Positions 19,162 through 31,890 of a DNA stretch of 42,476 nt are shown here, in pieces (position 1 is the first letter of the stretch; every line of letters begins with the position of its first letter). The position numbers and the translations under genes were made by a program. Below the pieces are notes generated by a model. It did no database searches. It was not told where the DNA came from and was given only the letters and a program-made list of their open reading frames with translations. This DNA is from Escherichia phage forsur: the sequence record MN850617.1; one strand, written 5' to 3'.

Positions 19162-21533
19162 TGGCGAACAGCTATAACACTTACGTGGCGAACGGTTCGC
19201 AGACCGCGTTCCTCGTTACGTTTGAGCAGCGCGTGTTCACACAGATTCAGGTGTACCTCAACTCCGAACTCCAAACGAGCGGGTACACCTACAACTCTGT
19301 GACCAAACAGATTGTCTTTGACACCGCCCCGCTCGCCGGGGTGATTGTCCGTTTGCAACGCTACACCTCTGAGACTCTGCTGAACAAGTTCGGACAGGAC
19401 GCTGCCTTTACGGGCAGCAACCTCGACGAGAACTTCGAGCAGATTCTGTTCAAGGCTGAGGAAACTCAGGAAGCATGGCTCGCGCCGCTTGACCGCGCCG
19501 TCCGTGTCCCGAACTCCGAAGTCTCCATCAACGCATTACCGAACGTCGCTGGCCGCCGCAACAAGGCACTGGGCTTTGACAGCAATGGCCAGCCGTTCAT
19601 GATTCCTCTGGTTGATATCCCTGACTCCGCGCTGGCGATTGCTCTGGCAATGGCTGACGGCGGTAAGTGGATTGGTACACTGGGCGGCGGTACGTTCCTC
19701 GACCGTCAGGATACCGTGTGCCTGTCAGAGTTCACCAACAACACCGGGTATGCCTCTGTCGCCGCTGCGGTACAAGCGTGCTTCGATTATGCCAAGGCTA
19801 ACCACAAGACTGTGGATGCCCGTGGTTGGGTCGGTACTGTCAACTCTACTGTCCTGATGGACGGTATTGAGGTTGTCGGCGGCACTTGGAACGGTACGGC
19901 TGATATCCGGCTGCTGGATTCCACATTCCGCGACTTCAAAGCCTCCACTGTCCGTGTCTGTTACTGGGGTGGTAAGGTTCGCATCTCTGATTATGAGTTC
20001 ACTGGTGCGCCGTCGAACTCCAAAGTAGCGAGCATCCTGTTCCAAGGTAACATCGCCGGGGGCAGCTACGTTATTGAGAACGGTATCCACCGCAATGGCA
20101 AGTTCGGTATTCTCCAGCAGGGTACTGGTGAGGCTATCGACAACGGCGTTATCCGCAACATCGCTATGATGAATATGCTGGGTGACGGCATCGAGATGAA
20201 CGTAATCAACAAGCACTATGATGGTGGCCTGCTGATTGAGAACATCTACCTCGAAGACCTCGACGGTACGACCGCTCCTATCCCTCTGTCCAACTGGGGC
20301 ATCGGTATCGGTATCGCTGGTCAAGGCCCGTTCGGTTGGGATGCTGCTGAAACGCAGTACGCCAAGAACGTGGTTGTCCGTAACGTCCATGCTCCGCGTG
20401 GTGTGCGTCAGGTTGTCCACTTCGAAGTTACCCGCGACAGCGTGTGCGAGAACGTGTTCTGTAACCCTGACCTCGCTGTGTCAACTGGTACTGGCCTGAC
20501 GGCGGCAGGTGTAATCACCTACGGCTGCAAGCGAATGACCATTGACGGCGTGGCTGGTGAGCCAATCAACACTGGCGCAACCTCTCCTAACGCGATTCGT
20601 CTCGTTATGTTGGAGTGGGGTGCGAACCAAGCAGGTGCAGGCGGTACGCCGGGCGCGGCATGTCCTTCGTTTGACATGACTGTGCGCAACGTGCAGACCC
20701 GTACCGGACGCTTCTATGCTGGCGTTGGCTCTGATGACGTGAACAACAACACGTACCATCTGGAAAACATCCACTGCCATACGATGAGTCTGTTCGGCGT
20801 GGCAACGCTGCTGAATATGACCAACGTGACCGGGGTAGTGTTCGATGCTGTAGGCGATGACTCCAGCGGCGGTACTTCATCCAACGGCCTATACCCGCGT
20901 AAGAAGACTGTTCTCAACATGGTGAACGTGAACTTCTACGGCGATGGCATGACTGAGGGTGCGCTGTACAGTAAGGCTCGCTATTCGGATATCAGTACGC
21001 TGAACTCCAACGTGCGTGCTATCCCGTACACCAACATCCAAGGTAACGTAGGCGTCATCCTGTCTCCGGTCAACCGCATGTACACGCTGCCGAATAACCT
21101 TGCAACCCTGACTGGTGGGGAGTTCCCGACTGGTAAAGAGTTCTGTGAGGGGACGGTGCTGTTTAAGACTGACGGCTCTGGTGGCAACTTCATCGTGACT
21201 GGCTTCGGCGCGTACATCCCGGATGACGGGAACAACTTCAAGGTGCGTGCTGCTGCCGCTGGCCAGACGTATCTTGAGCAGAACCTGACTCCGGCTGGTA
21301 CTCAGGCTTCCACCTCGTGGCTGTACCATAAGCCTATCTCGGCTGGTACTCGTCTACAGGTGCCGGGCGCTGGCGCTGGTGGTGCGCCCTTGACGGTTAC
21401 GGTGGTTCGTGCGCCTTATCAGGTGGACAATAACATCGGGAACCCGGTACGCATCGACATTACCCCGGCGCTCGTGACGGCTATCCCTGCTGGGACTCAG
21501 CTCGCCGCGACGTACCCGGTCACTTATATCTAA
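19161..21533 (+). CDS. tail fiber/tailspike: T7 gp17-like N-terminal adaptor plus a probable right-handed beta-helix (depolymerase-like) body (790 aa)
   Basis: The N-terminal ~150 aa align with T7 gp17 as recalled (NGSQTAFLVTFE.., VRLQRYTSETLL..NLDENFEQILFKAEE). The central region has repetitive G/N-x-x-I/V rungs (VIENGIHRNGKFGILQQG..IRNIAMMNMLGDGIEMNVI). Confidence 0.82.
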   Translation: MANSYNTYVANGSQTAFLVTFEQRVFTQIQVYLNSELQTSGYTYNSVTKQIVFDTAPLAGVIVRLQRYTSETLLNKFGQDAAFTGSNLDENFEQILFKAEETQEAWLAPLDRAVRVPNSEVSINALPNVAGRRNKALGFDSNGQPFMIPLVDIPDSALAIALAMADGGKWIGTLGGGTFLDRQDTVCLSEFTNNTGYASVAAAVQACFDYAKANHKTVDARGWVGTVNSTVLMDGIEVVGGTWNGTADIRLLDSTFRDFKASTVRVCYWGGKVRISDYEFTGAPSNSKVASILFQGNIAGGSYVIENGIHRNGKFGILQQGTGEAIDNGVIRNIAMMNMLGDGIEMNVINKHYDGGLLIENIYLEDLDGTTAPIPLSNWGIGIGIAGQGPFGWDAAETQYAKNVVVRNVHAPRGVRQVVHFEVTRDSVCENVFCNPDLAVSTGTGLTAAGVITYGCKRMTIDGVAGEPINTGATSPNAIRLVMLEWGANQAGAGGTPGAACPSFDMTVRNVQTRTGRFYAGVGSDDVNNNTYHLENIHCHTMSLFGVATLLNMTNVTGVVFDAVGDDSSGGTSSNGLYPRKKTVLNMVNVNFYGDGMTEGALYSKARYSDISTLNSNVRAIPYTNIQGNVGVILSPVNRMYTLPNNLATLTGGEFPTGKEFCEGTVLFKTDGSGGNFIVTGFGAYIPDDGNNFKVRAAAAGQTYLEQNLTPAGTQASTSWLYHKPISAGTRLQVPGAGAGGAPLTVTVVRAPYQVDNNIGNPVRIDITPALVTAIPAGTQLAATYPVTYI

Positions 21534-21542
21534 GGAGAAACC

Positions 21543-21848
21543 ATGGCATCCGTGAACAAGCAGCTCGACGGGCTGCACCGGATGCTGGTGGAGTATCTGT
21601 CCGACCGCTTGGCCGACGCACGTAGGAAAGATGAGAACGGTAATATCATCGAACCTATGGCGGCGGCTGAGCTGTCCGTGCTTCGCCAGTTCCTGAAAGA
21701 CAACGGCATTCAGGCTGATAAAGACCACGCTGACGACCTGCTCGCGCTGCAAGAACAGCTCAACAACGAGAAGACCGAGGCTGGCCGCAAGGATATCATG
21801 ACTGCTGCCATCAACTCAATCGCAGAAGATAGCGGGATGATGCACTAA
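21543..21848 (+). CDS. terminase small subunit (DNA maturase A-like, 101 aa)
   Basis: Small helical protein immediately upstream of, and coupled to, the large terminase, as T7 gp18 is. Confidence 0.68.
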   Translation: MASVNKQLDGLHRMLVEYLSDRLADARRKDENGNIIEPMAAAELSVLRQFLKDNGIQADKDHADDLLALQEQLNNEKTEAGRKDIMTAAINSIAEDSGMMH

Positions 21849-23608
21849 TGGATTTACAACGCCGCATGGTGATGGCAGGAATCGTTCGCGCTCACTACGA
21901 GAACAACTTCCCGCTGTTCCTGCACGACTACTTCGCATGGCTGGGCTTTGACCTCACTGAAATGCAGCTCGACATTGGCCGCTACATGGCCGACCGGACG
22001 CTCAAGAACAAGTGCGTCATGGCGCAGCGTGGTGAGGCTAAGTCCACCATCGGCATTGCTCGCGCTCTGTACGAATTTGTGCAGATGCCGAACGCTACTG
22101 TCCTGCTCGTATCCGGTTCCGACGACTATGCTGGTACGCTGTCGCACGCTATCGTGTCGGCTATCATGCAATGGGACAGGTTGGAATGGTTACGCCCGGA
22201 GACTCGCGCTGGCGCACGTACATCGTACACCGATGGCTTCGACGTGCATCACGCATTCCGTATCCCTGACAAACAACCCTCTGTAAAAGCGGTCGGTATC
22301 TTCGGCCAGTTACAGGGGAACCACGTATCGCTGTTGATTGCCGATGACGTGGAGACTACCAGTAACGGTAGCTCTCCTGCCAACCGCGCCCGTATCAACA
22401 CCCTGACCAAAGAGTTCGCGGCTATCGCCAACGATGGTGCAGAGATTCTGTACCTCGGCACGCCACAGACTCAGGACTCCATCTACAACACGCTCCCGCA
22501 GCGTGGCTTCGACGTTCGCATCTGGCCCGGTCGTTTCCCAACGGTTGAGGAAGAAGAACGCTATGGCGGTTGTCTGGCCCCATGGATTAAGCAGAAGATG
22601 GAGGGCCACCCGGAACTTCGCACAGGCTACGGTATCCTTGGAAACCGTGGTGCGCAGACCGACCCGCAACGCTACTCCGAAGAAAAGCAGTTGCAGAACG
22701 AACGAGACTACCAGCAGGCAGGCTTCCAGTTGCAGTTCATGCTGGACACTTCTCTGTCGGATGCTCTCAAACAGACCTTGCATCTCAAGGACTTAATCTT
22801 CTTCCACGGCTCGCCTATCTCCGCGCCGGAAGTCTTGCATTGGTCGAATCACCCACGGCACGCCGCCGAGCTGCCACTGGATTTCCCACTCGCTCGTGCG
22901 CAGCTATTCTTGGCTGCTGATTTCTCGGACACTTATGTACCATTCGAAAATGCCTCGGCGTTTCTTGACCCTGCTGGTGGTGGGTCGGATGAATCAGTTA
23001 TCATCGTCACCGCTTCTATCGGCCCGTTTATCCACGTCCTTGGTATGCACGTCTACCACGGCGGCCAGACGGAGGAAAACATCCAGACGGCGGTGGCGTG
23101 GCTAGGTGAGCTGGGCTGCAAACGTCTCGTCATTGAGGACAACATGGGCCACGGCACCGTGACCAACATGTACCGAGGTGAGATTAAGCGGCAGAAGCTG
23201 ACCATGGGCTGCGAGGGTGTATACTCGTCCGGCCAGAAAGAGGTGCGTATCATCAACCGCCTCGGCCCAATCATGCAGCGCCACCGTGTGGTTATCCACT
23301 GGAGCGTTGTTGAAGAAGACCTGCGGTTATGCCGGGGTATGGCCAACGGTGGCCGTGAGTACAGCCTGTTCTGGCAGCTCCAGAACCTGACTCAAGACCG
23401 TCAATCCATCCCGCATGATGACCGAATTGAAACCTTAGCCGCTGCCGTGTACCTCCACGCCGAGGTGTTGCAGCAAGACGAAAACGAAGAAGCGGAGCGC
23501 CGTGCAGTCGCTGTGGCCAAAGAGTTCATCGCTAACCCTATGGGGTATGATGACCCGAAATGGCGCAGCCACAAGCCTGTACGCGGTACGCGACGGAGAA
23601 TTAGATAA
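21848..23608 (+). CDS. terminase large subunit (DNA maturase B, T7 gp19-like, 586 aa)
   Basis: Same length as T7 gp19. Walker A-like QRGEAKST and Walker B-like LLIADDVE, followed by a C-terminal nuclease-type region. Confidence 0.92.
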   Translation: MDLQRRMVMAGIVRAHYENNFPLFLHDYFAWLGFDLTEMQLDIGRYMADRTLKNKCVMAQRGEAKSTIGIARALYEFVQMPNATVLLVSGSDDYAGTLSHAIVSAIMQWDRLEWLRPETRAGARTSYTDGFDVHHAFRIPDKQPSVKAVGIFGQLQGNHVSLLIADDVETTSNGSSPANRARINTLTKEFAAIANDGAEILYLGTPQTQDSIYNTLPQRGFDVRIWPGRFPTVEEEERYGGCLAPWIKQKMEGHPELRTGYGILGNRGAQTDPQRYSEEKQLQNERDYQQAGFQLQFMLDTSLSDALKQTLHLKDLIFFHGSPISAPEVLHWSNHPRHAAELPLDFPLARAQLFLAADFSDTYVPFENASAFLDPAGGGSDESVIIVTASIGPFIHVLGMHVYHGGQTEENIQTAVAWLGELGCKRLVIEDNMGHGTVTNMYRGEIKRQKLTMGCEGVYSSGQKEVRIINRLGPIMQRHRVVIHWSVVEEDLRLCRGMANGGREYSLFWQLQNLTQDRQSIPHDDRIETLAAAVYLHAEVLQQDENEEAERRAVAVAKEFIANPMGYDDPKWRSHKPVRGTRRRIR

Positions 23609-24288
23609 TGTCCATCATCACCATCACTGATGCTCAGCGGTATGAGCTTGGTTATCGCTGCGGTATCGCAGCTAACGAGACTCAGCGCTTCATCAATGAC
23701 ACCCGTGCAGTGACGGCAGCTCAGGCTGCTGACATTGAAACGGCTATCACCAATCTGGTGGCGGCACTTGAGGCTGCTGGCTATGCTGGTACGCCGGAAG
23801 GTTCCGCTCTGCTGGCTGACGGCGCTACTGTATCTGTGGTCAACTCCGCAGGCAACGACGCGCACAATGCCACAGCCAACGTTACTGGCACCACGCTGGA
23901 TAATGTACAGCTCGTCCTGTCTACCGCAGCACTGGTAGACCACACTGACGCAACTGAGATTCGTCGCTTCGACGGCTCTATCCTTGGCATCACCACCGCT
24001 ACGGCCCGTGTAGCTGATGGTCTGCTGAGCAACGTGCGGCTCCCGGCCAACGCTGATGCAGTGGTTAACGGTACGGCTTATTCCGTCCGTAACTCTGCTG
24101 GCGCTGATGGCCACAACGCCACCGCTGTCGTGGCAAGCAACGGTGCTCTCTCCGGCTTCAACCTCGCCGCTACTGTGGCTATGGTGGATAACGGTGATGC
24201 ACTGGCAATCCCGGTCACTGGCACGTACACCAACACCGTGACCTTCGCTGTTTCCGCTGGTGCAATCACTGGCATTACCCTCTCTTAA
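23608..24288 (+). CDS. hypothetical protein with an internal ~80-aa tandem duplication (226 aa)
   Basis: ATGA-type coupling to terminase. Two repeats share VxNSAGxDxHNATAxV..(V/M)VD. Ala/Thr/Gly/Asn-rich like fiber or decoration proteins. Confidence 0.6.
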   Translation: MSIITITDAQRYELGYRCGIAANETQRFINDTRAVTAAQAADIETAITNLVAALEAAGYAGTPEGSALLADGATVSVVNSAGNDAHNATANVTGTTLDNVQLVLSTAALVDHTDATEIRRFDGSILGITTATARVADGLLSNVRLPANADAVVNGTAYSVRNSAGADGHNATAVVASNGALSGFNLAATVAMVDNGDALAIPVTGTYTNTVTFAVSAGAITGITLS

Positions 24289-24299
24289 TAGGAGTCTTT

Positions 24300-24485
24300 A
24301 TGGCACTTGTAGATTCTACCGCAGCCGAACGTGCAGAGTTCGTGGCAGCCTGTAATATGGCGGCTAAGTACCTGAACGTGTGGACTGAGGACTACTTCTT
24401 CGATACCACCAACACCACTCTGGTGGCGGCGTATCAGGCGTATGTCACTCGTGTGTCCAACGCGCTCACTGCGCTGACCAACTAA
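24300..24485 (+). CDS. hypothetical protein (61 aa)
   Basis: AGGAG upstream. No hydrophobic segment. Confidence 0.5.
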   Translation: MALVDSTAAERAEFVAACNMAAKYLNVWTEDYFFDTTNTTLVAAYQAYVTRVSNALTALTN

Positions 24486-24494
24486 GGGGTCAAT

Positions 24495-24983
24495 ATGAAA
24501 CTGTCTCGGCTTATGGCCGGGGCAGTCCTGTCACTGTCCTTGACTTTGACGGGCTGCTCCGCAACAAGCGCACTGTCTGCTGTAACCTCGGCTGTCTCTC
24601 CCAATAAGCCGGAACTAACGGCACAGGTTGGCGCAGAGAACACGAAACAGGGCATCGGCTTGACTGCGAAACAGTCCGACGAAACGAAGGTCGGTGACGT
24701 ATCTGGTAACGCGCAAGTGGATACCGCTAAACAGGGTAGTGATTCGACGACTGTGAAGGACGTCACAGGAGGCTCTGTAAACGCTTCTAAGCAGGGTTCG
24801 CAGATTACCAATGGAAACGTGCAGGCTAAGACTATCGTGGTCTCTCAGAGCGACCCACGCAGTCTCCTGTGGGCATTTGGCATGGGCCTTACTTGTATCT
24901 TAGGTCTGGTGATGTGGTTTGTACCATCTCCGTGGAAGAAGAAGGTGAAAGATGACGGAAGCAAAGAAGGAGCCAGCTCCTAA
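24495..24983 (+). CDS. outer-membrane lipoprotein with a C-terminal transmembrane anchor: unimolecular spanin (u-spanin) candidate (162 aa)
   Basis: Signal peptide plus lipobox LTG|C (residues 18-21) and a C-terminal TMD LLWAFGMGLTCILGLVMWFV followed by KKK. Adjacent to the endolysin. Confidence 0.6.
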   Translation: MKLSRLMAGAVLSLSLTLTGCSATSALSAVTSAVSPNKPELTAQVGAENTKQGIGLTAKQSDETKVGDVSGNAQVDTAKQGSDSTTVKDVTGGSVNASKQGSQITNGNVQAKTIVVSQSDPRSLLWAFGMGLTCILGLVMWFVPSPWKKKVKDDGSKEGASS

Positions 24984-25335
24984 CATCCACTCGCGTATGG
25001 GCGCTGTGGAGGCTCGTATGCAATCCGTAGAAACACGCCTCGACAAACACGAGATTCAAATCGCCAACCTTGAGAAAGGTGACGCTGCTATGCTGGCCAA
25101 GCTATCGGAGAACGACTCCCGGTGGCTGGAGATTCAGCAGCAGCTCCGTGTCGTCGAGCAAATTCAGGACATTCAAAAGACTATGAGCCACATCGGTAAG
25201 CTGTTCTCTTACGCGGCTCACGCCGTCAAGTGGTGTCTCCTGACCGCTTCACTCGTTAGCGGTATCTATCTTGCGGTCAAGGCTGGCGACCTAACGGCGC
25301 TCCAGTCCTTTATCACAACGATTATGGGGATGTAA
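24952..25335 (+). CDS. membrane protein, holin candidate (127 aa; N-terminal coiled coil, single C-terminal TMD)
   Basis: GAAGGTGAAAG upstream of ATG 24952. TMD VKWCLLTASLVSGIYLAV. Lies immediately upstream of the endolysin and coupled to it (ATGTAATG). Confidence 0.45.
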   Translation: MTEAKKEPAPNIHSRMGAVEARMQSVETRLDKHEIQIANLEKGDAAMLAKLSENDSRWLEIQQQLRVVEQIQDIQKTMSHIGKLFSYAAHAVKWCLLTASLVSGIYLAVKAGDLTALQSFITTIMGM

Positions 25336-25871
25336 TGACTAACTTTGAAATCTGTATGAAGTTCACCGGGCTGGCCGAGGGTGGATACACCAAGCTGCCC
25401 GGTGACACTGGAGGGGAAACCAACCATGGAATTAGTGACGCTCGTGATGGGAAGCTGGATGGCAGAGCTTGTGGTGTCCCTACTGGGCTTGGCGGCACTG
25501 TGTGCGTGCCTATCAAAGACCTCACCAAAGAGCAAGCCGAGGCAATCTATCGCCGGGACTACTACAGCCCCATCAGAGGTGACGAGCTTCACCCTGCGAT
25601 TGCATGTGCCGTGTTTGATTACGGCGTCAACTCCGGCATCTCCCGTGCTGCTAAAGCTCTACAGCGGGTATGCGGCGTTGCACAGGACGGGGACATTGGT
25701 ACTGTCACCTTGGAAGCAGCACAACGTCTGGAACCTCACGCCGCAGCAGCAGCCATCTGTGACCTTCGTATTGCGTTCCTAAAGGCTTCTAAAGCCCCGA
25801 CAGTCGTTCGGTATAGGGATGCCTTGGTTGCTCGTGCAAAACGCTGTAGCGCTTACTGTGCGACGCTGTAG
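25335..25871 (+). CDS. endolysin, GH108-type muramidase with a PG_binding_3-like C-terminal domain (178 aa)
   Basis: N-terminal GLAEGGYTKLPGDTGGETNHGIS (the EGGY..D.GG.T..GI signature) and a later QDGDIGTVTLEAA motif. No signal or SAR segment. Confidence 0.85.
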   Translation: MTNFEICMKFTGLAEGGYTKLPGDTGGETNHGISDARDGKLDGRACGVPTGLGGTVCVPIKDLTKEQAEAIYRRDYYSPIRGDELHPAIACAVFDYGVNSGISRAAKALQRVCGVAQDGDIGTVTLEAAQRLEPHAAAAAICDLRIAFLKASKAPTVVRYRDALVARAKRCSAYCATL

Positions 25872-25900
25872 GGGCATCTGAAAGCTGACACATTGAACAG

Positions 25901-25930
25901 GCCGTGGGTGCAATACCCCGGCTTGAAAAT
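25901..25930 (+). terminator. stem-loop after the last late gene (weak terminator candidate)
   Basis: GCCGtGGG-TGCAATA-CCCCGGC (25901..25922) followed by TTGAAAATTG. Confidence 0.35.
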
Positions 25931-25939
25931 TGAACGTTT

Positions 25940-26455
25940 ATGCGTGGGCCTCCCTCGACCCGAATGACCGCGCGTACCCCCATGACGTGTGCGCGGATTA
26001 GCCTCGCGACGTGCGCGATATTGCTCGCGTGCGCTGCGCGGCGCGTCAAGAGGATTGCCTGCGTGCGGTATAGCTCGTGCGTGTCGCGTTTCATCGTCTG
26101 CCGTGTGGCGTGCTGTGCGCTGTCCTGCTGGCTGTGCTGTGCGGTGCTGTCCTATGGGGACGCTCTGCGCTGGCTGTGCTGTGCTGCGTGCTGCGCTCGG
26201 TCGGGCGGGTATCTGTCTCTTTTGCCGTGGTACGCTCTGCGCCGTGGTGGTGCTGTGTGGTGGTGGTGCTGCCGTGGTGCTGTCCTGTCTGCTGGTCTAC
26301 TGTCTGCGCCGCCAGCTCTGCGCGTCATGCTCTGCTACCTGCTGCTACTGTCCTACTGCGTTCACTGGCTGCCGCCTGTCATCCTGTCGGATTCCATCCG
26401 TTGCCGTTCCGCGCTCGCTTGTTTCGGCTGCGCCGCGCTCGCTCTGCGTATCTAG
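25940..26455. repeat. GC-rich, A-depleted (+ strand) low-complexity tract with short degenerate direct repeats; probable location of the collapsed terminal repeat / concatemer junction
   Basis: By hand count there are about 15 A in 26101..26450, with A-free runs of 53, 50 and 66 nt. Recurring GCTGTGCTGTGC, GGTGCTGTCCTG, GCCGTGGT and CGCTCTGCGC units. Confidence 0.7.
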
Positions 26456-26462
26456 CGATACA

Positions 26463-26485
26463 TATCACTATAGTCACTTTCATAA
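26463..26485 (-). promoter_or_regulatory. phage-RNAP promoter candidate P3, inverted (leftward) perfect copy of P1
   Basis: The reverse complement of 26463..26485 equals TTATGAAAGTGACTATAGTGATA, identical to 4585..4607. Predicted +1 is the G complementary to 26468, transcribing toward 25940. Confidence 0.5.
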
Positions 26486-26622
26486 TTATCTATTGATATC
26501 AGTAACTTATAACCTATCTGATAACGGTATCTATCCTATGCAATAACCTATTCAATCAAATATTTATTCCTAATGATTACAGTAACTTATCCACTATTTG
26601 AGCTATTCAGTGAAAATAAATC

Positions 26623-26651
26623 TTGCAATGCTGTTTGTGATTTGCTGTAAT
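26623..26651 (+). promoter_or_regulatory. sigma70 early promoter candidate PE0
   Basis: TTGCAA (26623-26628), 17-nt spacer, extended -10 TGcTGTAAT (TGTAAT at 26646-26651). Confidence 0.55.
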
Positions 26652-26726
26652 TCTCATCGCCGGGTAGCAGAACATCGCTACACGGTGGCAAGACGGTAAC
26701 ACTGCTCTTTAACAATCTGGAGTGTA

Positions 26727-26755
26727 TTGACAAGGCAAGCTCACTATGCTGTAAT
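26727..26755 (+). promoter_or_regulatory. sigma70 early promoter PE1
   Basis: Consensus TTGACA (26727-26732), 17-nt spacer, extended -10 TGcTGTAAT (26750-26755). Confidence 0.8.
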
Positions 26756-26863
26756 GCTTCCAGTCAGCCAGACAAGCCAAACAGTCATGGATAAAGACGT
26801 TAAAACCCGCGCAGGCTAACTGGTACGGATTATTCATCTCAGAATGGGCGCTGAATAAAACGG

Positions 26864-26892
26864 TTGACAGGATGAAACGAGTATGCTGTAAT
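26864..26892 (+). promoter_or_regulatory. sigma70 early promoter PE2
   Basis: TTGACA (26864-26869), 17-nt spacer, TGcTGTAAT (26887-26892). Confidence 0.8.
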
Positions 26893-26944
26893 ACGCTCCA
26901 GATTGACAGGGCAAGCAAGCCTGACAGTCAGTAGTAAAAAGTAG

Positions 26945-26973
26945 TTGACAAGCTGAATACACTGTGTTGTAAT
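26945..26973 (+). promoter_or_regulatory. sigma70 early promoter PE3
   Basis: TTGACA (26945-26950), 17-nt spacer, TGtTGTAAT (26968-26973). Confidence 0.8.
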
Positions 26974-27451
26974 CAGCACCGAGTTGGAAGGATGCAAAAC
27001 ATCCTGCTCTGAGTGAACGCAAACTGGCCGCGTAGTGTCACGGCTCACTGGGTATCCGCCGCAGGTTGGAACTGGGTGAGGCATCGCCGAAAGGCAACGG
27101 TATCGCAACAATGCTAACGCCGTAGGGGTAGCGCCTGATGCAAGGTAACGGAGAAGCGCGATAGACGCAGCGCAGTATCAGTACAATACCAAACGTCTTA
27201 TAAGGCGCGGAGTATAGCGGGTAGGTAGTCAAACGGCTTGTTAGCTGGCAACGGTGAGCAAGATACGCGACGGACTGCTGGAAGACTCCTGAGAGTGGAT
27301 GCAGACAATATCCACAGCGCGAAATGGGCGGGGCGATTTTTCAGGGTAGTGAATCCGACAAGCCAATCAATGCCACTGAGTGCAGACTGTACGGCGCGTC
27401 ACAATGGGTTCACTATCCACCTGAAAATAGCCAACAACTGGAGAAATAACT

Positions 27452-27844
27452 ATGTACCGTATCTATGCAAGCGCATATCGTCAGAACAACGCTGAGTGTG
27501 TTAATCTGGCGCTTCATTGCAAGGCACTGCGAACGGTGCAGGATATGTTCGGAGTGATTCCGGTCACACTGACAGGCAAGTTCGACAATGCGTATGAGTT
27601 AAGCATGGTCTTTCCTGTCGATGGAATCTACGAAATCAGACAGGCTGTTAAGCTGTTCTGTAAAGCCTTTGAACAGGACTGCATCATGGTAGTGACCGAT
27701 GACAATGATGCAATCTTCATGGATTCACCATATCCGGGCAAGCCTGCTGGCAAGTTTGTCAGCAAGACAGAAGCGGAGATGGAAGCCGGGCAGTTCACTG
27801 CTTGGACTTACGATGGTGAGCAATTTTGGGTAGTGGAGGCGTAA
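27452..27844 (+). CDS. first early protein, T3 gp0.3-like SAM hydrolase/lyase candidate (130 aa)
   Basis: GGAG upstream. Block resemblance to T3 SAMase as I recall it (ASAYRQNNAECVNL.. vs VSAFRSNLCDEVNM..; FCKAFEQDCIMVV vs ACNEWEQDCVLVY). Occupies the first early gene position. Confidence 0.5.
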   Translation: MYRIYASAYRQNNAECVNLALHCKALRTVQDMFGVIPVTLTGKFDNAYELSMVFPVDGIYEIRQAVKLFCKAFEQDCIMVVTDDNDAIFMDSPYPGKPAGKFVSKTEAEMEAGQFTAWTYDGEQFWVVEA

Positions 27845-27845
27845 T

Positions 27846-27917
27846 ATGTTCACTGCACTCTGTGTGATAGCGGCGGCGTGCTGGCTGATTGACCAGCGCC
27901 TGTCTAAGCGAGCCTGA
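27846..27917 (+). CDS. micro-ORF, 23-aa hydrophobic peptide
   Basis: Strong GGAGG 6 nt upstream. MFTALCVIAAACWLIDQRLSKRA. Confidence 0.4.
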   Translation: MFTALCVIAAACWLIDQRLSKRA

Positions 27918-27918
27918 T

Positions 27919-28002
27919 ATGTGGGACTTACTGGTAGCGTTGTTCTGGTTTGTCTTTGCAGGCTTGTGGATTTACTGGTTGACTCGTCCCAAATTATGGT
28001 GA
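27919..28002 (+). CDS. micro-ORF, 27-aa hydrophobic peptide
   Basis: ATG 1 nt after the previous stop. MWDLLVALFWFVFAGLWIYWLTRPKLW (single TMD). Confidence 0.4.
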   Translation: MWDLLVALFWFVFAGLWIYWLTRPKLW

Positions 28003-28008
28003 CTGCCT

Positions 28009-28030
28009 AATGCGTCTTGCGAGGCGCATT
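28009..28030 (+). repeat. intergenic stem-loop, UUGCGA-loop family (copy 1; no GGCAAT box)
   Basis: AATGCGTC-TTGCGA-GGCGCATT, 8-bp stem. Confidence 0.7.
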
Positions 28031-28066
28031 GTGAAGTAACCAACCAACAACCCGACGAGGTGTATC

Positions 28067-28594
28067 ATGACTACTGTTAAATATACTGCATTCAAAGATG
28101 CTGCGGCGCTGGACAAAGCTATCGAAGCGACTGTCAAAAAGGCGCACTCACTCCGTAACGATATTCAGAATGTTGCGGTCGGTATTATCCTGCACGCTTA
28201 CCATCACGGCGACTACACTCGTGCTGAGTCGTTCACTCACCAACTGGGTGATGGCGTCCGTGGTAAGGCACTGGTTGACTGGTTCGTCCAGTTCGGCGGC
28301 CTGATTGTGGGTGAGCATGAAGATGGCAAGTCCGGCTTCGTTGGCTGGAAGGGTGCCGACTTCATCAAAGAGAACATCGACAAGGCGAAAGCCACGATGT
28401 GGTGGACTTGCAAGCCAGAAGCGGCCTTTGATGGCTTCGACCTGCAAGATGCGCTCGAAAAGCTGATTGCCAAAGCTGAAAAGGCAATGAACAAGGCGAA
28501 CGAGCTGCGCCACGAAGGGCGCGATGAGGATGCGAACAAGGTTGTCGTGCCTCAGAACGTGCTGGACGGCCTGCGCAAGCTGAAAGCTGCGTAA
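28067..28594 (+). CDS. hypothetical early protein (175 aa)
   Basis: GAGG upstream. Helical and Lys/Ala-rich, with no recognisable motif. Confidence 0.7.
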   Translation: MTTVKYTAFKDAAALDKAIEATVKKAHSLRNDIQNVAVGIILHAYHHGDYTRAESFTHQLGDGVRGKALVDWFVQFGGLIVGEHEDGKSGFVGWKGADFIKENIDKAKATMWWTCKPEAAFDGFDLQDALEKLIAKAEKAMNKANELRHEGRDEDANKVVVPQNVLDGLRKLKAA

Positions 28595-28607
28595 GCGGGA
28601 TTGACTC

Positions 28608-28644
28608 AAGCCATCTTGCGAGGTGGCTTTATGGCAATTCTGCC
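28608..28644 (+). repeat. intergenic stem-loop (UUGCGA loop) plus GGCAATTCTGCC box (copy 2)
   Basis: AAGCCATC-TTGCGA-GGTGGCTT. The box starts 11 nt after the loop. Confidence 0.7.
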
Positions 28645-28667
28645 CCAACAATTACGGAGTATCATCC

Positions 28668-28952
28668 ATGACCACTAAAACTGTTCTGGCCTACGTCACC
28701 AAGAAAGGCGAAGAAGTGTACGGCTATGCTGTGTCTATCGACGGCGGCCACAACTACCTGCATCACGTTCGTGAAGAAGGTGAACCGACTGACCACGATG
28801 GCATTCTGGAAACGCTGAAAGGCATCCCGCTGCCGCACGAAATCATCTGTATGCTGGCTGGCCAGACGGAAGATGACCTGCAACTGCGTCACGGCGACGA
28901 CCTGACCATTCAGGGTATCGGCAGCTTCGAAGCTGACGTAGACGACGAATAA
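28668..28952 (+). CDS. acidic early protein ending ..GSFEADVDDE (94 aa)
   Basis: Start trimmed to ATG 28668 (ACGGAG upstream). The track's start at 28623 lies inside the conserved hairpin/box element. Confidence 0.65.
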   Translation: MTTKTVLAYVTKKGEEVYGYAVSIDGGHNYLHHVREEGEPTDHDGILETLKGIPLPHEIICMLAGQTEDDLQLRHGDDLTIQGIGSFEADVDDE

Positions 28953-28963
28953 GCGTTGTCCTG

Positions 28964-29000
28964 CTGCATCCTTGCGAGGGTGCAGCGTGGCAATACTGCC
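28964..29000 (+). repeat. intergenic stem-loop (UUGCGA loop) plus GGCAATACTGCC box (copy 3)
   Basis: CTGCATCC-TTGCGA-GGGTGCAG. The box starts 11 nt after the loop. Confidence 0.7.
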
Positions 29001-29025
29001 TTATTCCAATCTGAGGATTAATCCT

Positions 29026-29106
29026 ATGTCTACACTGAAACTGGTACTGATTTCTAACATCGCTGCTGACGCTTTCGACGCTGATGACGTGGACTTCTCT
29101 GCGTGA
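29026..29106 (+). CDS. 26-aa acidic mini-ORF (MSTLKLVLISNIAADAFDADDVDFSA), resembling the C-terminal tail of the neighbouring paralogs
   Basis: TGAGGA upstream. Preceded by the same hairpin/box element as the full-length genes. Confidence 0.4.
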   Translation: MSTLKLVLISNIAADAFDADDVDFSA

Positions 29107-29112
29107 TACCTT

Positions 29113-29150
29113 ACTGCCTCGTTGCGACGGGGCAGTGCGGCAATCATGCC
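29113..29150 (+). repeat. intergenic stem-loop (UUGCGA loop) plus GGCAATCATGCC box (copy 4)
   Basis: ACTGCCTCG-TTGCGA-CGGGGCAGT. The box starts 11 nt after the loop. Confidence 0.7.
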
Positions 29151-29171
29151 CAACCTAACTGGAGATTTACC

Positions 29172-29453
29172 ATGGCTACAATCAACGTGTATTCCCTGAG
29201 CAACGGCGGTCTGGCATTCATCGCTGGTGATAAGGTAGACGAAGCGCCGTCGCTGGGCGTGACGCCGAAACCGGAGGCCAGCCGTGATGATGTTATCGCG
29301 GAAGTCAAGGGTGCGCTGGAAGACCTCGGCGGTCTGCTGTTCGTCCTGAATGGTGGCAAGCTGTCGGTTGAAAAGCTGGACGCGCTGGAACCTGTCTTTG
29401 TTGAGAGCTTCGAAGCTGACAACATCGACCTCGCTGCTTTCGCTGACGCCTAA
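29172..29453 (+). CDS. acidic early protein, paralog A (93 aa, MATINVY.. ..ESFEADNIDLAAFADA)
   Basis: Start trimmed to ATG 29172 (TGGAGA upstream). Clear paralog of 29791..30099. Confidence 0.75.
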   Translation: MATINVYSLSNGGLAFIAGDKVDEAPSLGVTPKPEASRDDVIAEVKGALEDLGGLLFVLNGGKLSVEKLDALEPVFVESFEADNIDLAAFADA

Positions 29454-29491
29454 GCATAACCCGAAACCCACAACCAAAGAGGACAATCAAC

Positions 29492-29722
29492 ATGGCTAAG
29501 TTTGAACTGGTACGCTTCATTGACCCGAACGATGGCGAAGAAACCTTCGCGCAGTTTGCTGATGACCGCTCGCTGGTCGCCATCTACAACACTGAGCGCA
29601 CGGCGCGGCGCTGGTTCAAGGAAGACGACGACATGGACAGCATCGAAGAAGCGCTGGCTATGCCGGGCTACGCTGAGGCTGTCGAGGCAGCACTGAAAGG
29701 CGAAGTCGTAGCGACTGCGTGA
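29492..29722 (+). CDS. acidic early protein (76 aa)
   Basis: AAGAGGA upstream. Confidence 0.65.
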   Translation: MAKFELVRFIDPNDGEETFAQFADDRSLVAIYNTERTARRWFKEDDDMDSIEEALAMPGYAEAVEAALKGEVVATA

Positions 29723-29729
29723 TTTCTGT

Positions 29730-29768
29730 CAGCCCATCCATAGCGGTGGGCTGTAGGGCAATCATGCC
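29730..29768 (+). repeat. intergenic stem-loop (CAUAGC loop) plus GGCAATCATGCC box (copy 5)
   Basis: CAGCCCATC-CATAGC-GGTGGGCTG. The box starts 12 nt after the loop. Confidence 0.65.
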
Positions 29769-29790
29769 ACAACAACTGAGGGTATACACC

Positions 29791-30099
29791 ATGGCAACTA
29801 TCAACGTCTACAAAACTATCACTGGCTCACTGGTATTCGTAGTGGGTGAACTGCGTGAAGATGCACCAATCGTTGGCGTGTCTCTGCGTGAAGGGGCAAC
29901 CGAGGCTGACGCCATCGCTGAGATTCGTCAGAACATTGAGAACCTCGGCGGCCTGTTCTTCCTGCTGCAAGGTGGCAGCCTGAACCTCGCTAAGTTGCAG
30001 GAGCATGAGCCTGTACTCGTGACCAGCTTCGAAGCGGAAGATGTAGACGCCAGTGACTTCGAAGCCAGCCGCGCTGACGAAGAAGAAGCAGGCGAGTAA
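29791..30099 (+). CDS. acidic early protein, paralog B (102 aa, MATINVY.. ..TSFEAEDVDASDFEASRADEEEAGE)
   Basis: Start trimmed to ATG 29791 (TGAGGG upstream). Aligns along its full length with 29172..29453. Confidence 0.75.
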   Translation: MATINVYKTITGSLVFVVGELREDAPIVGVSLREGATEADAIAEIRQNIENLGGLFFLLQGGSLNLAKLQEHEPVLVTSFEAEDVDASDFEASRADEEEAGE

Positions 30100-30212
30100 T
30101 GAGCGCCATCGAGGTGGCACTGATGTTGGGCTGTCATGCAGGTATTGGCAGCCTCGTCATCTACATCGTTGGCGCGGCACGCAAATCATACGATAGGAGA
30201 ACCAAGCTATGA
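30099..30212 (+). CDS. micro-ORF, 37-aa membrane peptide
   Basis: TAATG overlap with the upstream stop. One TMD (GIGSLVIYIVGAA) followed by a basic tail. Confidence 0.4.
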   Translation: MSAIEVALMLGCHAGIGSLVIYIVGAARKSYDRRTKL

Positions 30213-30385
30213 AGTTTGCAGTATCGCGCAGCGGTGCAAGCCATGCGGCACACAAGTTGCACTTCCTGTTCCACTCGCTGTACCTTACAGCGGCTGCGAT
30301 GGAGGGTCACTTGTTCTATAGCCTCATGGCTGGCGGCACCTTACTGTTCATGGTTGGCACGGCGGTGCTGGGCAATGAACATTAA
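30209..30385 (+). CDS. small membrane protein (58 aa)
   Basis: AGGAGA about 9 nt upstream, ATGA overlap. Below the ORF-track cutoff. Preferred over the track's 30136 and 30216 frames, which lack an RBS. Confidence 0.45.
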   Translation: MKFAVSRSGASHAAHKLHFLFHSLYLTAAAMEGHLFYSLMAGGTLLFMVGTAVLGNEH

Positions 30386-30548
30386 TCTGTTACAACGGGT
30401 CAAGGGTATGGAGCGTCGGCACTGGGAGACGGCCATCATCCTTAAGGTAAGCATAAGCGCTGGACTGGCTGCTGCTTATTTCCTGCCAACCACCGCAGCA
30501 ATAGCCGTTGGTATCAGCACCAACCTGCTATGGTTGTGGAAGTTGTAA
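30375..30548 (+). CDS. small membrane protein (57 aa)
   Basis: Internal ATG of track ORF 30216..30548. Two hydrophobic segments. The upstream part of the track ORF is Cys/Arg-rich, out-of-frame-looking sequence. Confidence 0.45.
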   Translation: MNINLLQRVKGMERRHWETAIILKVSISAGLAAAYFLPTTAAIAVGISTNLLWLWKL

Positions 30549-30562
30549 GCAGTGGATTACTC

Positions 30563-30589
30563 AAGGCTGTCCAGCGGGTAGCCTTTTTG
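30563..30589 (+). terminator. rho-independent terminator candidate within the early region
   Basis: AAGGCT-(11-nt loop)-AGCCTT followed by a TTTTT run (30584-30588). Confidence 0.5.
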
Positions 30590-30612
30590 AAATCCATTGA
30601 CGAGAGGGGAGC

Positions 30613-30951
30613 ATGGCACTACATCGAGTGAAGGTAATGCGTGGGCCTGACTTCGAAGACGGGCAAGAGATTGCTGCATTGCAGTACCGCTTGCCGTCCG
30701 GTCAGGAGGGGCTGGTCATCATTGACCAGATTGAAATCATGGGTGAGCACATGCTGATTGCTGATGCCACCGATGAGCAAATCATTGAGCGCTGCAAGGC
30801 ATACGCCGGGGGCAGACCGTTCATCATCGACCTGATGAATGACCAGCACATCAATGCTGATGGTTCGCTGCTGTTCAAGGCATGGCTTTATGCTCTCACA
30901 ACAATCTACGAAGGGGAGATGTATCTCTTTGGCGTAGACAACGAGGGTTAA
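30613..30951 (+). CDS. hypothetical early protein (112 aa)
   Basis: GAGAGGGGAG upstream. Confidence 0.7.
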   Translation: MALHRVKVMRGPDFEDGQEIAALQYRLPSGQEGLVIIDQIEIMGEHMLIADATDEQIIERCKAYAGGRPFIIDLMNDQHINADGSLLFKAWLYALTTIYEGEMYLFGVDNEG

Positions 30952-30954
30952 ATC

Positions 30955-31269
30955 ATGAAGGTAAGCAAAGGATATCTGTTCGTGCTGTTGATGCTGGCCA
31001 CCCTGTATCTCAGCACCGTGCATGTGGCACTGGCAGCCACTGTGGAGAAGGTGCATTTGGATGCGTATGACGTACCGCTGGGCGCACCTGATGGACAGGT
31101 GTACTCTGCTTGCGTCATTGACCTACGCAAAGGCGGCACTGTCAGCACACTGGCCTACGTTGGTGAGTGTGAGGATGTGCTGCCACACCTGAAAGAAAAG
31201 CTGGAGCATGATGGCGTGACCACCATCGTGACTCTCTCAATCAACGGTCATAACATCAACCTAACGTGA
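30955..31269 (+). CDS. secreted/periplasmic early protein (104 aa)
   Basis: N-terminal signal peptide MKVSKGYLFVLLMLATLYLSTVHVALA|AT. GAGGG upstream. Confidence 0.7.
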   Translation: MKVSKGYLFVLLMLATLYLSTVHVALAATVEKVHLDAYDVPLGAPDGQVYSACVIDLRKGGTVSTLAYVGECEDVLPHLKEKLEHDGVTTIVTLSINGHNINLT

Positions 31270-31277
31270 GGTTTTAT

Positions 31278-31529: not shown

Positions 31530-31535
31530 TAATCT

Positions 31536-31571
31536 ACAGCCTCTGCTTGCTGGGGCTGTGTCACTATCAAA
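31536..31571 (+). repeat. intergenic stem-loop plus GTGTCACTATCAAA box (second family, copy 1)
   Basis: ACAGCCTC-(8-nt loop)-GGGGCTGT, then a box shared with 31840..31876. Confidence 0.6.
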
Positions 31572-31587
31572 TAAACGAGAGGCAAAC

Positions 31588-31833: not shown

Positions 31834-31839
31834 TAAGCT

Positions 31840-31876: not shown

Positions 31877-31890
31877 CGATGGAGGTGGGT

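What the first reader, a model, noticed from the sequence alone, without database searches (positions are those of the whole stretch)
25940..26455. 0.5-kb strand-asymmetric tract almost devoid of A on the + strand
Seen in sequence: by hand count only about 15 A occur in 26101..26450 (about 4 percent). A-free runs are 26101-26153, 26161-26210 and 26233-26298. The tract is built from degenerate short direct repeats (GCTGTGCTGTGC, GGTGCTGTCCTG, GCCGTGGT, and CGCTCTGCGC near 26161, 26233, 26315 and 26441). The 5' part (25940-26100) is CG-dinucleotide-rich.

Because every stop codon contains A, all three + frames are open at once. The track ORFs of 171, 185 and 139 aa are therefore a compositional artefact rather than genes.

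Inference: the tract sits exactly where T7-like genomes have their terminal repeat and concatemer junction, between the last late gene and the early promoters. RNA made from the - strand would be U-poor and purine-rich, which favours stable RNA:DNA hybrids. A role in end formation, packaging or replication priming is therefore plausible.
Basis: partly seen in the sequence, partly recalled or inferred. Interest (0 to 1): 0.65.

Follow-up and report, generated by a model that had tools for sequence, protein, structure and literature searches.

The report
A-free phage genome-end repeat region
The almost adenine-free half-kilobase is real and non-coding: it is the terminal repeat, plus the stretch just inside the left end, of a T7-type (phiKMV-like) E. 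coli phage, and related phages keep the odd composition even where the sequence has changed beyond recognition.

Summary
There are 15 A in 26101-26450 (4.3%). This is the lowest value in the window, 6 sd below the mean. The four longest A-free runs in the window all lie here.

The three + strand ORFs are not genes:
- indels between close relatives are almost never multiples of 3;
- variable sites show no codon periodicity;
- there is no Pfam hit above the cut-off.

The window is a Bonnellvirus genome, a phiKMV-like member of the T7 supergroup. By homology with phage J8-65 (annotated 259-bp repeat) and with LKA1, LIMElight and KP34, the direct terminal repeat runs from about 25952-25955 to about 26198-26213.

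- The left boundary carries a terminus signature shared across the family.
- The right boundary carries a conserved TATCTGTCTCTTTTGCC element. It sits where T7, T3 and SP6 have the ATCTGTT polymerase pause signal.
- The rest of the tract (to 26455) is an array of A-less short repeats, in the position of the short-repeat array that follows T7's terminal repeat.

Adenine poverty persists in LIMEzero, LKA1 and phiKMV although their sequences no longer align, and variants within the tract avoid A. The composition therefore looks selected.

The R-loop idea based on minus-strand RNA has no support. This is a new variant of a known kind, of moderate interest.

The parts
25898..25925 (+). Hairpin after the endolysin stop codon, a possible late-transcript terminator or stabiliser. 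It lies outside the A-poor tract.
   Evidence: The fold is. Kc261, altidsur and aldrigsur carry a paired extra G and extra C that keep the stem. The hairpin is absent from the J8-65 subgroup.
25918..25964 (+). Left-terminus signal: CCCGGCTTGAAAATTG, a 13-nt spacer, then GGCCTCCC|TCGACCCGAA. The genome's left end is predicted at 25952-25955.
   Evidence: The signal is invariant in 15 Bonnellvirus genomes and is kept in LIMEzero and in IMG/VR relatives L023, L024 and L025. The J8-65 record starts at TCGACCC. The spacing to CCCCCAT (25977-25983) matches the physical left ends of T7, SP6, KP34, phiKMV and LKA1.
25952..26213 (.). Predicted direct terminal repeat, present once in this circularly permuted assembly. 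The right end is at 26198 by analogy with J8-65, or at 26213 by analogy with LKA1, LIMElight and KP34.
   Evidence: No second copy exists in the window.
25956..26095 (.). CpG-rich block of the repeat, rich in alternating purine-pyrimidine steps. It holds three AT(T/A)GCYYGYGTGCG units at 26020, 26054 and 26070.
   Evidence: It has the highest CpG density and the highest alternating-step density of the window. It is 93-99% identical among close relatives whose flanks are 80-90% identical. GCTCGCGTGCG also occurs in the repeats of J8-65, LKA1 and LIMElight.
26094..26210 (+). G/T-rich A-free block inside the repeat (2 A in 105 nt), with an invariant island GGACGCTCTGCGCTGGCTG at 26158-26176.
26207..26226 (+). 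Right-boundary element GGGTATCTGTCTCTTTTGCC. It occupies the position of the T7, T3 and SP6 ATCTGTT concatemer-junction pause signal.
   Evidence: It is nearly invariant in 15 genomes amid hypervariable flanks. Homologous elements are CTACCTCTTTTCGC, CAATCTCTTTTGC and CATACCTTTTTGC in distant relatives. TGCCTCTTTTGCC, TGCCTTTTGTC and TGCCTTGCTTATTTTGC directly follow the annotated repeat ends of LKA1, LIMElight and KP34. ATCTGTT sits at the repeat end in T7, T3 and SP6.
26224..26455 (+). Unique A-poor array of degenerate short repeats just inside the left end. It is G/T-rich up to about 26300 and C/T-rich after that. It is the positional equivalent of the short-repeat array that follows T7's terminal repeat.
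   Evidence: Unit-sized indels of 8-11 and 20 nt separate close relatives. Conserved islands are CCAGCTCTGCGCGTCA (26312-26327) and CCGCGCTCGC...GCGTATCTAGCGATAC (26410-26460).
26456..26640 (+). AT-rich, G-poor block (10% G) with a 32-nt direct repeat at 26490-26521 and 26570-26601. It separates the tract from the early promoters.
26623..26973 (+). Four rightward early promoter-like elements, TTG(A/C)(A/C)A-N17-TGTAAT, at 26623, 26727, 26864 and 26945, plus a boxA-like GCTCTTTAACAATCTGG at 26704-26720. This is context that fixes the orientation of the module.
   Evidence: The same 17-mer occurs in T7 at 815-831 and in T3.

Best explanation
The tract is the non-coding genome-end module of a Bonnellvirus, a phiKMV-like podovirus of the T7 supergroup.

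**Anatomy.** Its first half is the direct terminal repeat, from about 25952-25955 to about 26198-26213. The repeat has three parts:
- a family-wide left-terminus signature;
- a strongly conserved CpG-rich block with GCTCGCGTGCG-type repeats;
- an A-free G/T-rich block.

At the right edge of the repeat lies a conserved pyrimidine and T-run element, TATCTGTCTCTTTTGCC. The second half, to 26455, is unique DNA made of A-less degenerate short repeats. It leads into an AT-rich block and then the host-type early promoters.

**How it most likely works.** This part is inferred by analogy with T7.
- In replicating concatemers this is the junction where terminase recognises and cuts the two boundaries and the repeat is duplicated.
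- The right-edge element acts like the T7 concatemer-junction signal. It would be a pause or stop for rightward phage transcription, a cleavage landmark, or both.
- In the virion the tract is the first DNA to enter the cell, ahead of the early promoters and the anti-restriction SAMase gene.

**The adenine poverty.**
- It comes from arrays of short A-less units (GTGCTG, CTGCGC, GGTGGTG and similar) that turn over by gain and loss of units.
- The three-letter composition itself is held by selection.
- Why it is selected is not shown. My best guess is that the units are strand-specific protein-binding or pausing signals.
- A side effect is a region with no promoters, no start or stop codons and almost no restriction or Dam sites.
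For: **Identity and position**
- The closest relatives are all Bonnellvirus.
- The tract lies between the endolysin gene (ends 25871) and the early promoters and SAMase gene.

**Terminal repeat**
- J8-65 has identical 259-bp copies at both record ends, starting at the equivalent of 25955.
- The isolating authors noted excess read depth in the non-coding ends.
- The left-end signature is shared with physical ends of T7, SP6, KP34, phiKMV, LKA1 and LIMElight.

**Boundary element**
- It is nearly invariant in 15 genomes and recognisable in relatives whose large terminase is 42-85% identical.
- A near-identical TGCCTCTTTTGCC begins right after the annotated repeat of LKA1, with similar elements in LIMElight and KP34.
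- ATCTGTT begins at the repeat end in T7, T3 and SP6.

**Non-coding**
- Indels are almost never multiples of 3.
- Variable sites fall 32/36/41 over the three phases (p 0.57). The endolysin control gives 19/11/58 (p 4e-10).
- There is no Pfam or Rfam hit.

**Composition selected**
- A stays at 2-10% in all 15 genomes while identity falls to 44-56%.
- Phages that no longer align are still A-poor: LIMEzero 7.3%, phiKMV 1-700 7.3%, LKA1 201-450 4.0%, LIMElight 101-350 6.8%.
- Only 13 of 87 biallelic columns involve A (p 9e-5). A/G columns number 6 against 29 C/T (p 0.006).

**Repeat turnover**
- Indels of 8-11 and 20 nt separate close relatives, and there is a lag-5 periodicity.
Against: - No reads or physical end mapping exist for this genome, so the repeat boundaries rest on homology. 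They differ by about 15 nt depending on the reference phage.
- The method behind the J8-65 repeat annotation is not stated in its paper.
- The boundary element is not an exact T7 class II signal. It reads ATCTGTC here and ATCTATC in J8-65. The ATCTGT part is not the conserved part in more distant relatives, where CTCTTTT is conserved. phiKMV itself has no such motif.
- Nothing here shows which protein binds the short repeats, or that any does.
- A-less units spreading by slippage could give much of the asymmetry without selection on composition.
- Single-strand folding energies do not differ from shuffled sequence, so no structural role is indicated.
Confidence: 0.72

Rival explanations
1. The composition is a by-product. 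The tract is a microsatellite-like array of A-less units that expands and contracts by replication slippage. Its strand asymmetry has no function beyond spacing the terminal signals from the promoters.
For: - Unit-sized indels of 8-11 and 20 nt separate close relatives.
- There is a lag-5 periodicity and a few k-mers dominate: GTGCTG occurs 9 times and CTG 36 times.
- The A-poor blocks are the most variable part of the region, 60-99% identical, whereas the CpG block is 93-99% identical.
Against: - A-poverty persists in phiKMV, LKA1, LIMElight and LIMEzero, whose repeat units differ and whose sequences do not align.
- Point variants inside the tract avoid A (13/87, p 9e-5). G-to-A transitions are about three times rarer than expected from the number of C/T transitions.
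Confidence: 0.18
2. The tract is a shield against restriction and host defence on the leading DNA. The first 500 bp to enter the cell lacks A, so almost no restriction, Dam or type I sites can occur before the SAMase is made.
For: - The whole genome avoids restriction targets to an extreme degree. It has 0 GATC (157 expected), 1 CCWGG, and 36 of 64 six-base palindromes absent.
- The first gene is an anti-restriction SAMase.
- The tract holds no six-base palindrome between 26094 and 26455.
Against: - The rest of the genome achieves the same avoidance without any shift in base composition, so removing all A is unnecessary.
- GCGC and CGCG are abundant in the tract.
- Two palindromes that are otherwise absent from the genome, CGCGCG and TCGCGA, occur only inside the repeat.
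- Few sites would be expected in 500 bp anyway.
Confidence: 0.06
3. One reading: leftward transcription gives U-poor, purine-rich RNA that forms stable R-loops, which prime replication or end formation.
For: - The - strand would be 62% purine.
- T7 and T3 do have a leftward host promoter (A0) in this region.
- The G-rich first half has a GC skew of +0.21.
Against: - No leftward promoter-like site was found near the tract.
- A -10 hexamer cannot exist inside A-free DNA on either strand.
- All genes and early promoter-like elements are rightward.
- Rightward RNA is pyrimidine-rich (38% purine).
- The GC skew reverses to -0.18 in the second half.
Confidence: 0.04
4. One of the open frames encodes a real small protein, as several GenBank records annotate (Kc261, HHU8, Lidtsur, ROV85 on the + strand; glasur on the - strand).
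For: - ORFs of 139-185 aa exist.
- Automatic annotation called genes here in 5 of about 15 relatives.
- There is a weak HTH_23 match below the cut-off (17.6 bits against 24.6).
Against: - The annotations disagree on frame, strand and extent, and most records annotate nothing.
- Frameshifting 1-nt indels separate genomes that are 91-99% identical.
- There is no codon periodicity.
- Open frames are forced by the lack of A.
Confidence: 0.02

Closest known systems
Bacteriophage T7, T3 and SP6 terminal repetition and concatemer junction, including the class II pause signal ATCTGTT
   Same: - The same place in the genome map: last late gene, repeat, signal at the right edge of the repeat, short-repeat leader, AT-rich block, host early promoters, boxA-like motif, anti-restriction gene.
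- A shared left-terminus signature, C4-5(A/G)T about 25 nt from the end.
- SP6's GGGCGTGGGCTATCTGTTCGTTTGC closely resembles the window's GGGCGGGTATCTGTCTCTTTTGC.
- The last 40 nt of T7's repeat is also A-poor, with 2 A.
   Different: - The 7-base signal is not exact here (ATCTGTC). For T7 polymerase any base change is reported to abolish the effect.
- The polymerase here is a distant phiKMV-type enzyme.
- The conserved core in this clade is CTCTTTT(G/C)(C/G), not ATCTGTT.
- The repeat is longer (about 245-260 bp against 160-231 bp) and CpG-rich.
The short-repeat array that follows T7's terminal repeat (T7 nt 161-360, CCTAAAG units)
   Same: A non-coding array of degenerate short direct repeats directly to the right of the terminal repeat, strongly skewed between strands, and ending before the early promoters.
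   Different: - T7's units are A/C-rich and the depleted base is G (about 11%). Here the units are G/C/T only and the depleted base is A (4-5%).
- In the window, normal composition resumes to the left of the repeat.
Annotated direct terminal repeats of phiKMV-like phages (phiKMV 414 bp, LKA1 298 bp, LIMElight 277 bp, KP34 216 bp, J8-65 259 bp)
   Same: - Same clade and same map position.
- The same A-poor repeat plus leader: phiKMV 7.3% A over 700 nt, and LKA1 4.0% over 201-450.
- The same T-run element right after the repeat.
- A shared GCTCGCGTGCG motif with LKA1, LIMElight and J8-65.
   Different: - The A-depletion is most extreme in this Bonnellvirus subgroup.
- No paper found in the searched library describes the composition or the boundary element.

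Membership tests
T7-supergroup direct terminal repeat / concatemer junction | Lies between the last late gene and the host-type early promoters of a genome transcribed in one direction | tested here: met
   The endolysin gene ends at 25871. Promoter-like elements run from 26623, and the SAMase ORF is at 27452.
T7-supergroup direct terminal repeat / concatemer junction | The same sequence is present at both physical ends of virion DNA | not testable with these tools
   The window is a permuted assembly with one copy. The support is indirect: J8-65 has identical 259-bp ends, and the isolating authors made a read-depth remark.
T7-supergroup direct terminal repeat / concatemer junction | Conserved left-terminus signature at the start of the repeat | tested here: met
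   CCCTCGACCC...CCCCCAT aligns with the first 30 nt of the T7, SP6, KP34, phiKMV, LKA1, LIMElight and J8-65 records.
T7 class II (concatemer-junction) pause/termination signal | Exact ATCTGTT preceded by A, C or T | tested here: not met
   The window has TATCTGTC (6 of 7) and J8-65 has TATCTATC (5 of 7). The strictness of the motif is described.
T7 class II (concatemer-junction) pause/termination signal | Located at the right boundary of the terminal repeat | tested here: met
   T7 has it at 161, T3 at 232 and SP6 at 174. The window element lies 0-12 nt from the predicted boundary.
T7 class II (concatemer-junction) pause/termination signal | The phage RNA polymerase pauses or terminates there | not testable with these tools
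   This needs in vitro transcription with the Bonnellvirus polymerase.
T7-type short-repeat array flanking the terminal repeat | Array of degenerate short direct repeats directly adjoining the repeat, non-coding | tested here: met
T7-type short-repeat array flanking the terminal repeat | Unit related to CCTAAAG | tested here: not met
   The units here are GTGCTG, CTGCGC, GCCGTGGT and GCTCTGCG. None contains A.
Protein-coding gene | Frame-preserving indels and third-position excess of substitutions among relatives | tested here: not met
   Almost all indels are not multiples of 3. Variable sites fall 32/36/41 (p 0.57), against 19/11/58 in the endolysin control.
Protein-coding gene | Match to a known protein family | tested here: not met
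   There is no Pfam family above its cut-off.
R-loop-forming or transcription-primed origin | A promoter that drives RNA of the proposed sense through the tract | tested here: not met
   No leftward promoter-like site was found. The T7-promoter-like CACTATAG at 26466 is a single copy with no family in the genome.
R-loop-forming or transcription-primed origin | Sustained G-richness of the non-template strand | tested here: inconclusive
   The GC skew is +0.21 in 26094-26300 but -0.18 in 26301-26455.

The most novel reading that the evidence does not exclude
Near-exclusion of adenine from one strand of the terminal repeat and its leader may be a selected, clade-wide cis signal of phiKMV-like phages. 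Together with the conserved CTCTTTT(G/C)(C/G) element at the right edge of the repeat, it would direct a strand-specific step in duplicating the terminal repeat, such as polymerase pausing, strand-specific nicking or terminase loading. If so, it would give a defined, mutable sequence handle on how T7-type phages generate exact terminal repeats, which a 2026 review calls less well understood than cos or headful packaging.
Probability: 0.2. Interest if true: 0.6.

Novelty: new variant of a known kind. Interest (0 to 1): 0.38.

Why it matters
- Exact terminal repeats of T7-type phages are cut and duplicated by a mechanism that is still poorly defined.
- This tract shows that a whole clade (Bonnellvirus, LIMEzero-like phages, LKA1, phiKMV, LIMElight) keeps two features at the repeat that I did not find described in the papers searched:
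  - a three-letter (C, G, T) composition on one strand;
  - a conserved T-run element exactly at the right boundary of the repeat.
- Both features are short, defined and easy to mutate, so they are practical entry points for experiments on end formation.
- On the practical side, gene callers repeatedly annotate false 'hypothetical proteins' here, in 5 of about 15 public records.
- The boundary motifs allow the physical ends of permuted assemblies of these phages to be predicted from sequence alone.

Tried and rejected
- **Chi or Chi-like protection from RecBCD.** There is no exact Chi in the tract. Matches of 7/8 and 6/8 are no more frequent than in dinucleotide shuffles, in six genomes.
- **A phiOL-like phage promoter at GATACATATCACTATAG (26457-26473).** No second copy or related family exists in the window. 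The motif is not conserved in the J8-65 subgroup.
- **Z-DNA in the CpG block.** The density of alternating steps is the highest in the window, but the longest run is only 11 nt. This was left as a remark.
- **Structured or deliberately unstructured single strands.** DNA and RNA folds give z scores of 0.7-1.35 against shuffles.
- **Known RNA families.** There were no hits.
- **The phiKMV-type single-strand nick consensus.** Matches occur at chance level only.
- **Exclusion of T7-type primase sites from the - strand.** T7's own repeat carries GACCC and GACC, so the idea has no support from the one phage whose primase specificity is known.
- **Collecting more relatives with AAAATTG-N12-20-CCCTCGAC in IMG/VR.** The scan returned only chance matches: 0 of 119 had an A-poor stretch downstream. 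The loci were reused as a background set.
- **The LIMEzero paper (PMC3126476).** It was not available.

Full report
**1.

- Region 26101-26450 contains exactly 15 A in 350 bases (4.3%), with C 31%, G 34% and T 31%.
- The whole flagged interval 25940-26455 has 36 A (7.0%).
- For 350-nt windows the mean A fraction of the window is 22.9% (sd 3.0%). The global minimum, 4.0%, lies at 26094-26443.
- The four longest A-free runs of the window all lie here: 26094-26153, 26161-26210, 26233-26298 and 26397-26449. They are 50-66 nt long, and the next longest anywhere is 35 nt.
- In 1.09 Mb of unrelated viral contigs, no 350-nt window had any base at or below 5%.
- The quoted short repeats are present at the quoted places. 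The tract has a pentamer periodicity (lag 5, z 3.7) and strongly avoids identical neighbouring bases (lag 1, z -6.3).
- The 5' part is the most CpG-dense stretch of the window: 27 CpG per 140 nt at 25956-26095, against 10.3 +/- 3.0.
- The three ORFs exist as stated.

**2. What the window is**

- The nearest relatives are all members of the genus Bonnellvirus. These are Autographiviridae with phiKMV-like gene order that infect E. coli, Kosakonia, Cronobacter, Pantoea and Enterobacter. They are 84-96% identical across this region.
- The length of 42,476 bp equals that listed for Escherichia phage forsur.
- The tract lies between the endolysin gene (25335-25871) and a set of rightward promoter-like elements. 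The anti-restriction SAMase gene (27452-27844) follows.
- The window is a circularly permuted assembly that holds one copy of the region.

**3. It is not coding**

- Between the window and relatives that are 91-99% identical in the tract, the indels have lengths 1, 8, 9, 10, 11 and 20. Almost none is a multiple of three: 2/2 for glasur, 4/4 for Kc261, 11/12 for altidsur and 21/26 for J8-65.
- Variable sites are spread evenly over the three phases (32/36/41, p 0.57). The neighbouring endolysin gene, tested the same way, gives 19/11/58 (p 4e-10).
- No Pfam family passes its cut-off and no Rfam family matches.
- Public records disagree about genes here. Most annotate nothing, four annotate different + strand ORFs and one annotates a - strand ORF.
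- The open frames follow directly from the lack of A.

**4. It is the terminal repeat plus the leader inside the left end**

- Phage J8-65 carries an annotated repeat of 259 bp that is identical at both record ends.
  - In a 15-genome alignment its first base, the T of TCGACCC, corresponds to window 25955.
  - Its last base corresponds to about 26198.
- The left boundary sits in an invariant motif, GGCCTCCC|TCGACCC. The motif is also kept in LIMEzero and in metagenomic relatives.
- The first 30 nt of the T7, SP6, KP34, phiKMV, LKA1, LIMElight and J8-65 records all share a C4-5(A/G)T run at about positions 23-30. The window's CCCCCAT at 25977-25983 therefore places the end at 25952-25955.

**5. 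The right boundary carries a conserved element**

- GGGTATCTGTCTCTTTTGCC (26207-26226) is nearly invariant among 15 genomes, although the DNA on both sides is the most variable of the region.
- Relatives whose large terminase is only 42-85% identical have CTACCTCTTTTCGC, CAATCTCTTTTGC or CATACCTTTTTGC at the same relative place.
- In three phages with annotated repeats, the base after the repeat begins TGCCTCTTTTGCC (LKA1), TGCCTTTTGTC (LIMElight) or TGCCTTGCTTATTTTGC (KP34). By that analogy the window's repeat ends at 26213.
- In T7, T3 and SP6 the class II pause signal ATCTGTT begins at position 161, 232 and 174, at the end of repeats of 160, 231 and 174 bp. SP6's version, GGGCGTGGGCTATCTGTTCGTTTGC, closely resembles the window's.
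  - The window's ATCTGTC is therefore not a member of that signal class.
  - The part conserved in this clade is the T-run, not ATCTGT.
- The shared position supports a similar role. The role itself is inferred, not shown.

**6. Anatomy of the tract**

- 25956-26095: the CpG-rich block. It is 93-99% identical among close relatives, better conserved than the flanks. It holds three AT(T/A)GCYYGYGTGCG units. The core GCTCGCGTGCG recurs in the repeats of J8-65, LKA1 and LIMElight.
- 26094-26210: G/T-rich, with 2 A in 105 nt, around an invariant island at 26158-26176.
- 26207-26226: the boundary element.
- 26224-26455: A-less short repeats, G/T-rich at first and C/T-rich later.
- 26456-26640: an AT-rich, G-poor block, followed by the early promoters.
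- T7 has the same order of parts, including a short-repeat array after its repeat. There the depleted base is G and the unit is CCTAAAG.

**7. Composition is conserved and sequence is not**

- Across the 15 genomes, A stays at 2-6% in the in-repeat block and 5-10% in the post-repeat block. Identity to the window falls to 44-56% for the J8-65 subgroup.
- Phages that no longer align remain A-poor while T stays at 24-35%:
  - LIMEzero, 22 A in 300 nt;
  - phiKMV, 51 A in its first 700 nt;
  - LKA1, 10 A in 201-450;
  - LIMElight, 17 A in 101-350;
  - KP34 is only mildly depleted.
- Within the close group, 91 of 303 gap-free columns vary. Only 13 of the 87 biallelic columns involve A (p 9e-5 against one third).
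- There are 29 C/T columns and 6 A/G columns (p 0.006). The flanking AT-rich block gives 20 and 24.
- This points to selection against A, or to a very local strand-specific mutation bias, on top of repeat turnover.

**8. Mechanism: what is shown and what is inferred**

- Shown: the location, the non-coding nature, the boundary islands, the conserved composition and the repeat turnover.
- Inferred from T7 biology:
  - the two islands guide the cuts that create the ends;
  - the right-edge element acts on rightward phage transcription or on cleavage at the concatemer junction;
  - the tract is the first DNA to enter the host.
- Unknown: why adenine is excluded. My best guess is that the A-less units are strand-specific binding or pausing signals.
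- Tested and unsupported:
  - Chi-like sites;
  - single-strand structure;
  - a phage promoter at 26466;
  - restriction avoidance as the main cause. The whole genome already avoids restriction sites by other means, and the only CGCGCG and TCGCGA of the genome lie inside the repeat.

**9.

- The placement and the verdict that the ORFs are artefacts are correct.
- The R-loop argument depends on - strand RNA, for which there is no promoter and no precedent in this genome. Rightward RNA would be 38% purine.

**10. Verdict**

- The feature is real and striking in composition. It belongs to a known kind of element: the T7-type terminal repeat with its flanking short-repeat leader.
- The A-free composition across phiKMV-like phages and the conserved T-run at the repeat's right edge appear to be undescribed in the papers I could search.
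- Novelty: new variant of a known kind. Interest: moderate.

Noticed in passing
window 1-42476: The whole genome has no GATC at all (157 +/- 11 expected) and a single CCWGG. 36 of the 64 six-base palindromes are absent, against 5.3% of non-palindromic hexamers. There are 225 palindromic hexamers where 684 are expected. This is extreme avoidance of restriction and Dam/Dcm sites.
   Followed up: partly
window 25969 and 26004: The only CGCGCG and the only TCGCGA of the genome both lie inside the predicted terminal repeat. These are palindromes that the rest of the genome avoids.
   Followed up: no
window 26704-26720: GCTCTTTAACAATCTGG is identical to T7 nt 815-831 and is also present in T3; SP6 has GCTCTTTAACAATATGG. 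From my own knowledge it matches the ribosomal-operon boxA antitermination motif (GCTCTTTAACAA). It lies after the first early promoter and is invariant in nearly all of the 15 relatives.
   Followed up: partly
window 26623-26973: There are four rightward TTG(A/C)(A/C)A-N17-TGTAAT elements, each preceded by TGC or GTT. The -10-like hexamer has G where sigma-70 promoters almost always have A, so the standard consensus scan missed them.
   Followed up: partly
window 26456-26640: An AT-rich block has only 10% G and includes the longest G-free run of the window (26541-26574). It also holds a 32-nt direct repeat (26490-26521 and 26570-26601) containing TGAT(A/T)(T/A)CAGTAACTTAT. It could be an origin, an UP element or a binding site.
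   Followed up: no
window 25898-25925: A hairpin follows the endolysin gene. Kc261, altidsur and aldrigsur carry a matched extra G and extra C that preserve the stem. The hairpin is deleted in the J8-65 subgroup.
   Followed up: partly
window, whole: Chi (GCTGGTGG) occurs 8 times on the + strand and once on the - strand, where 0.65 per strand is expected. This is probably a by-product of CTG-GTG codon use on the single coding strand.
   Followed up: no
window 7294-7696: This is the T-poorest stretch of the window (12.9% T). It is a coding region made of GCAGCCGCAACAGCCG-type repeats that encode a Gln/Pro-rich repeat.
   Followed up: no
window 26500-42476 and 1-7000: Cumulative GC skew rises steadily through the early and middle genes and is flat across about 7000-26000. 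The two halves of the genome differ in G-over-C bias although all genes are on one strand.
   Followed up: no
L100 (phiKMV 1-700), L222 (LKA1 1-450), L224 (LIMElight 101-350): The type phages of related genera have the same A-poor terminal repeat plus leader, at 7.3%, 6.9% and 6.8% A. The feature is therefore clade-wide and not special to this window.
   Followed up: partly
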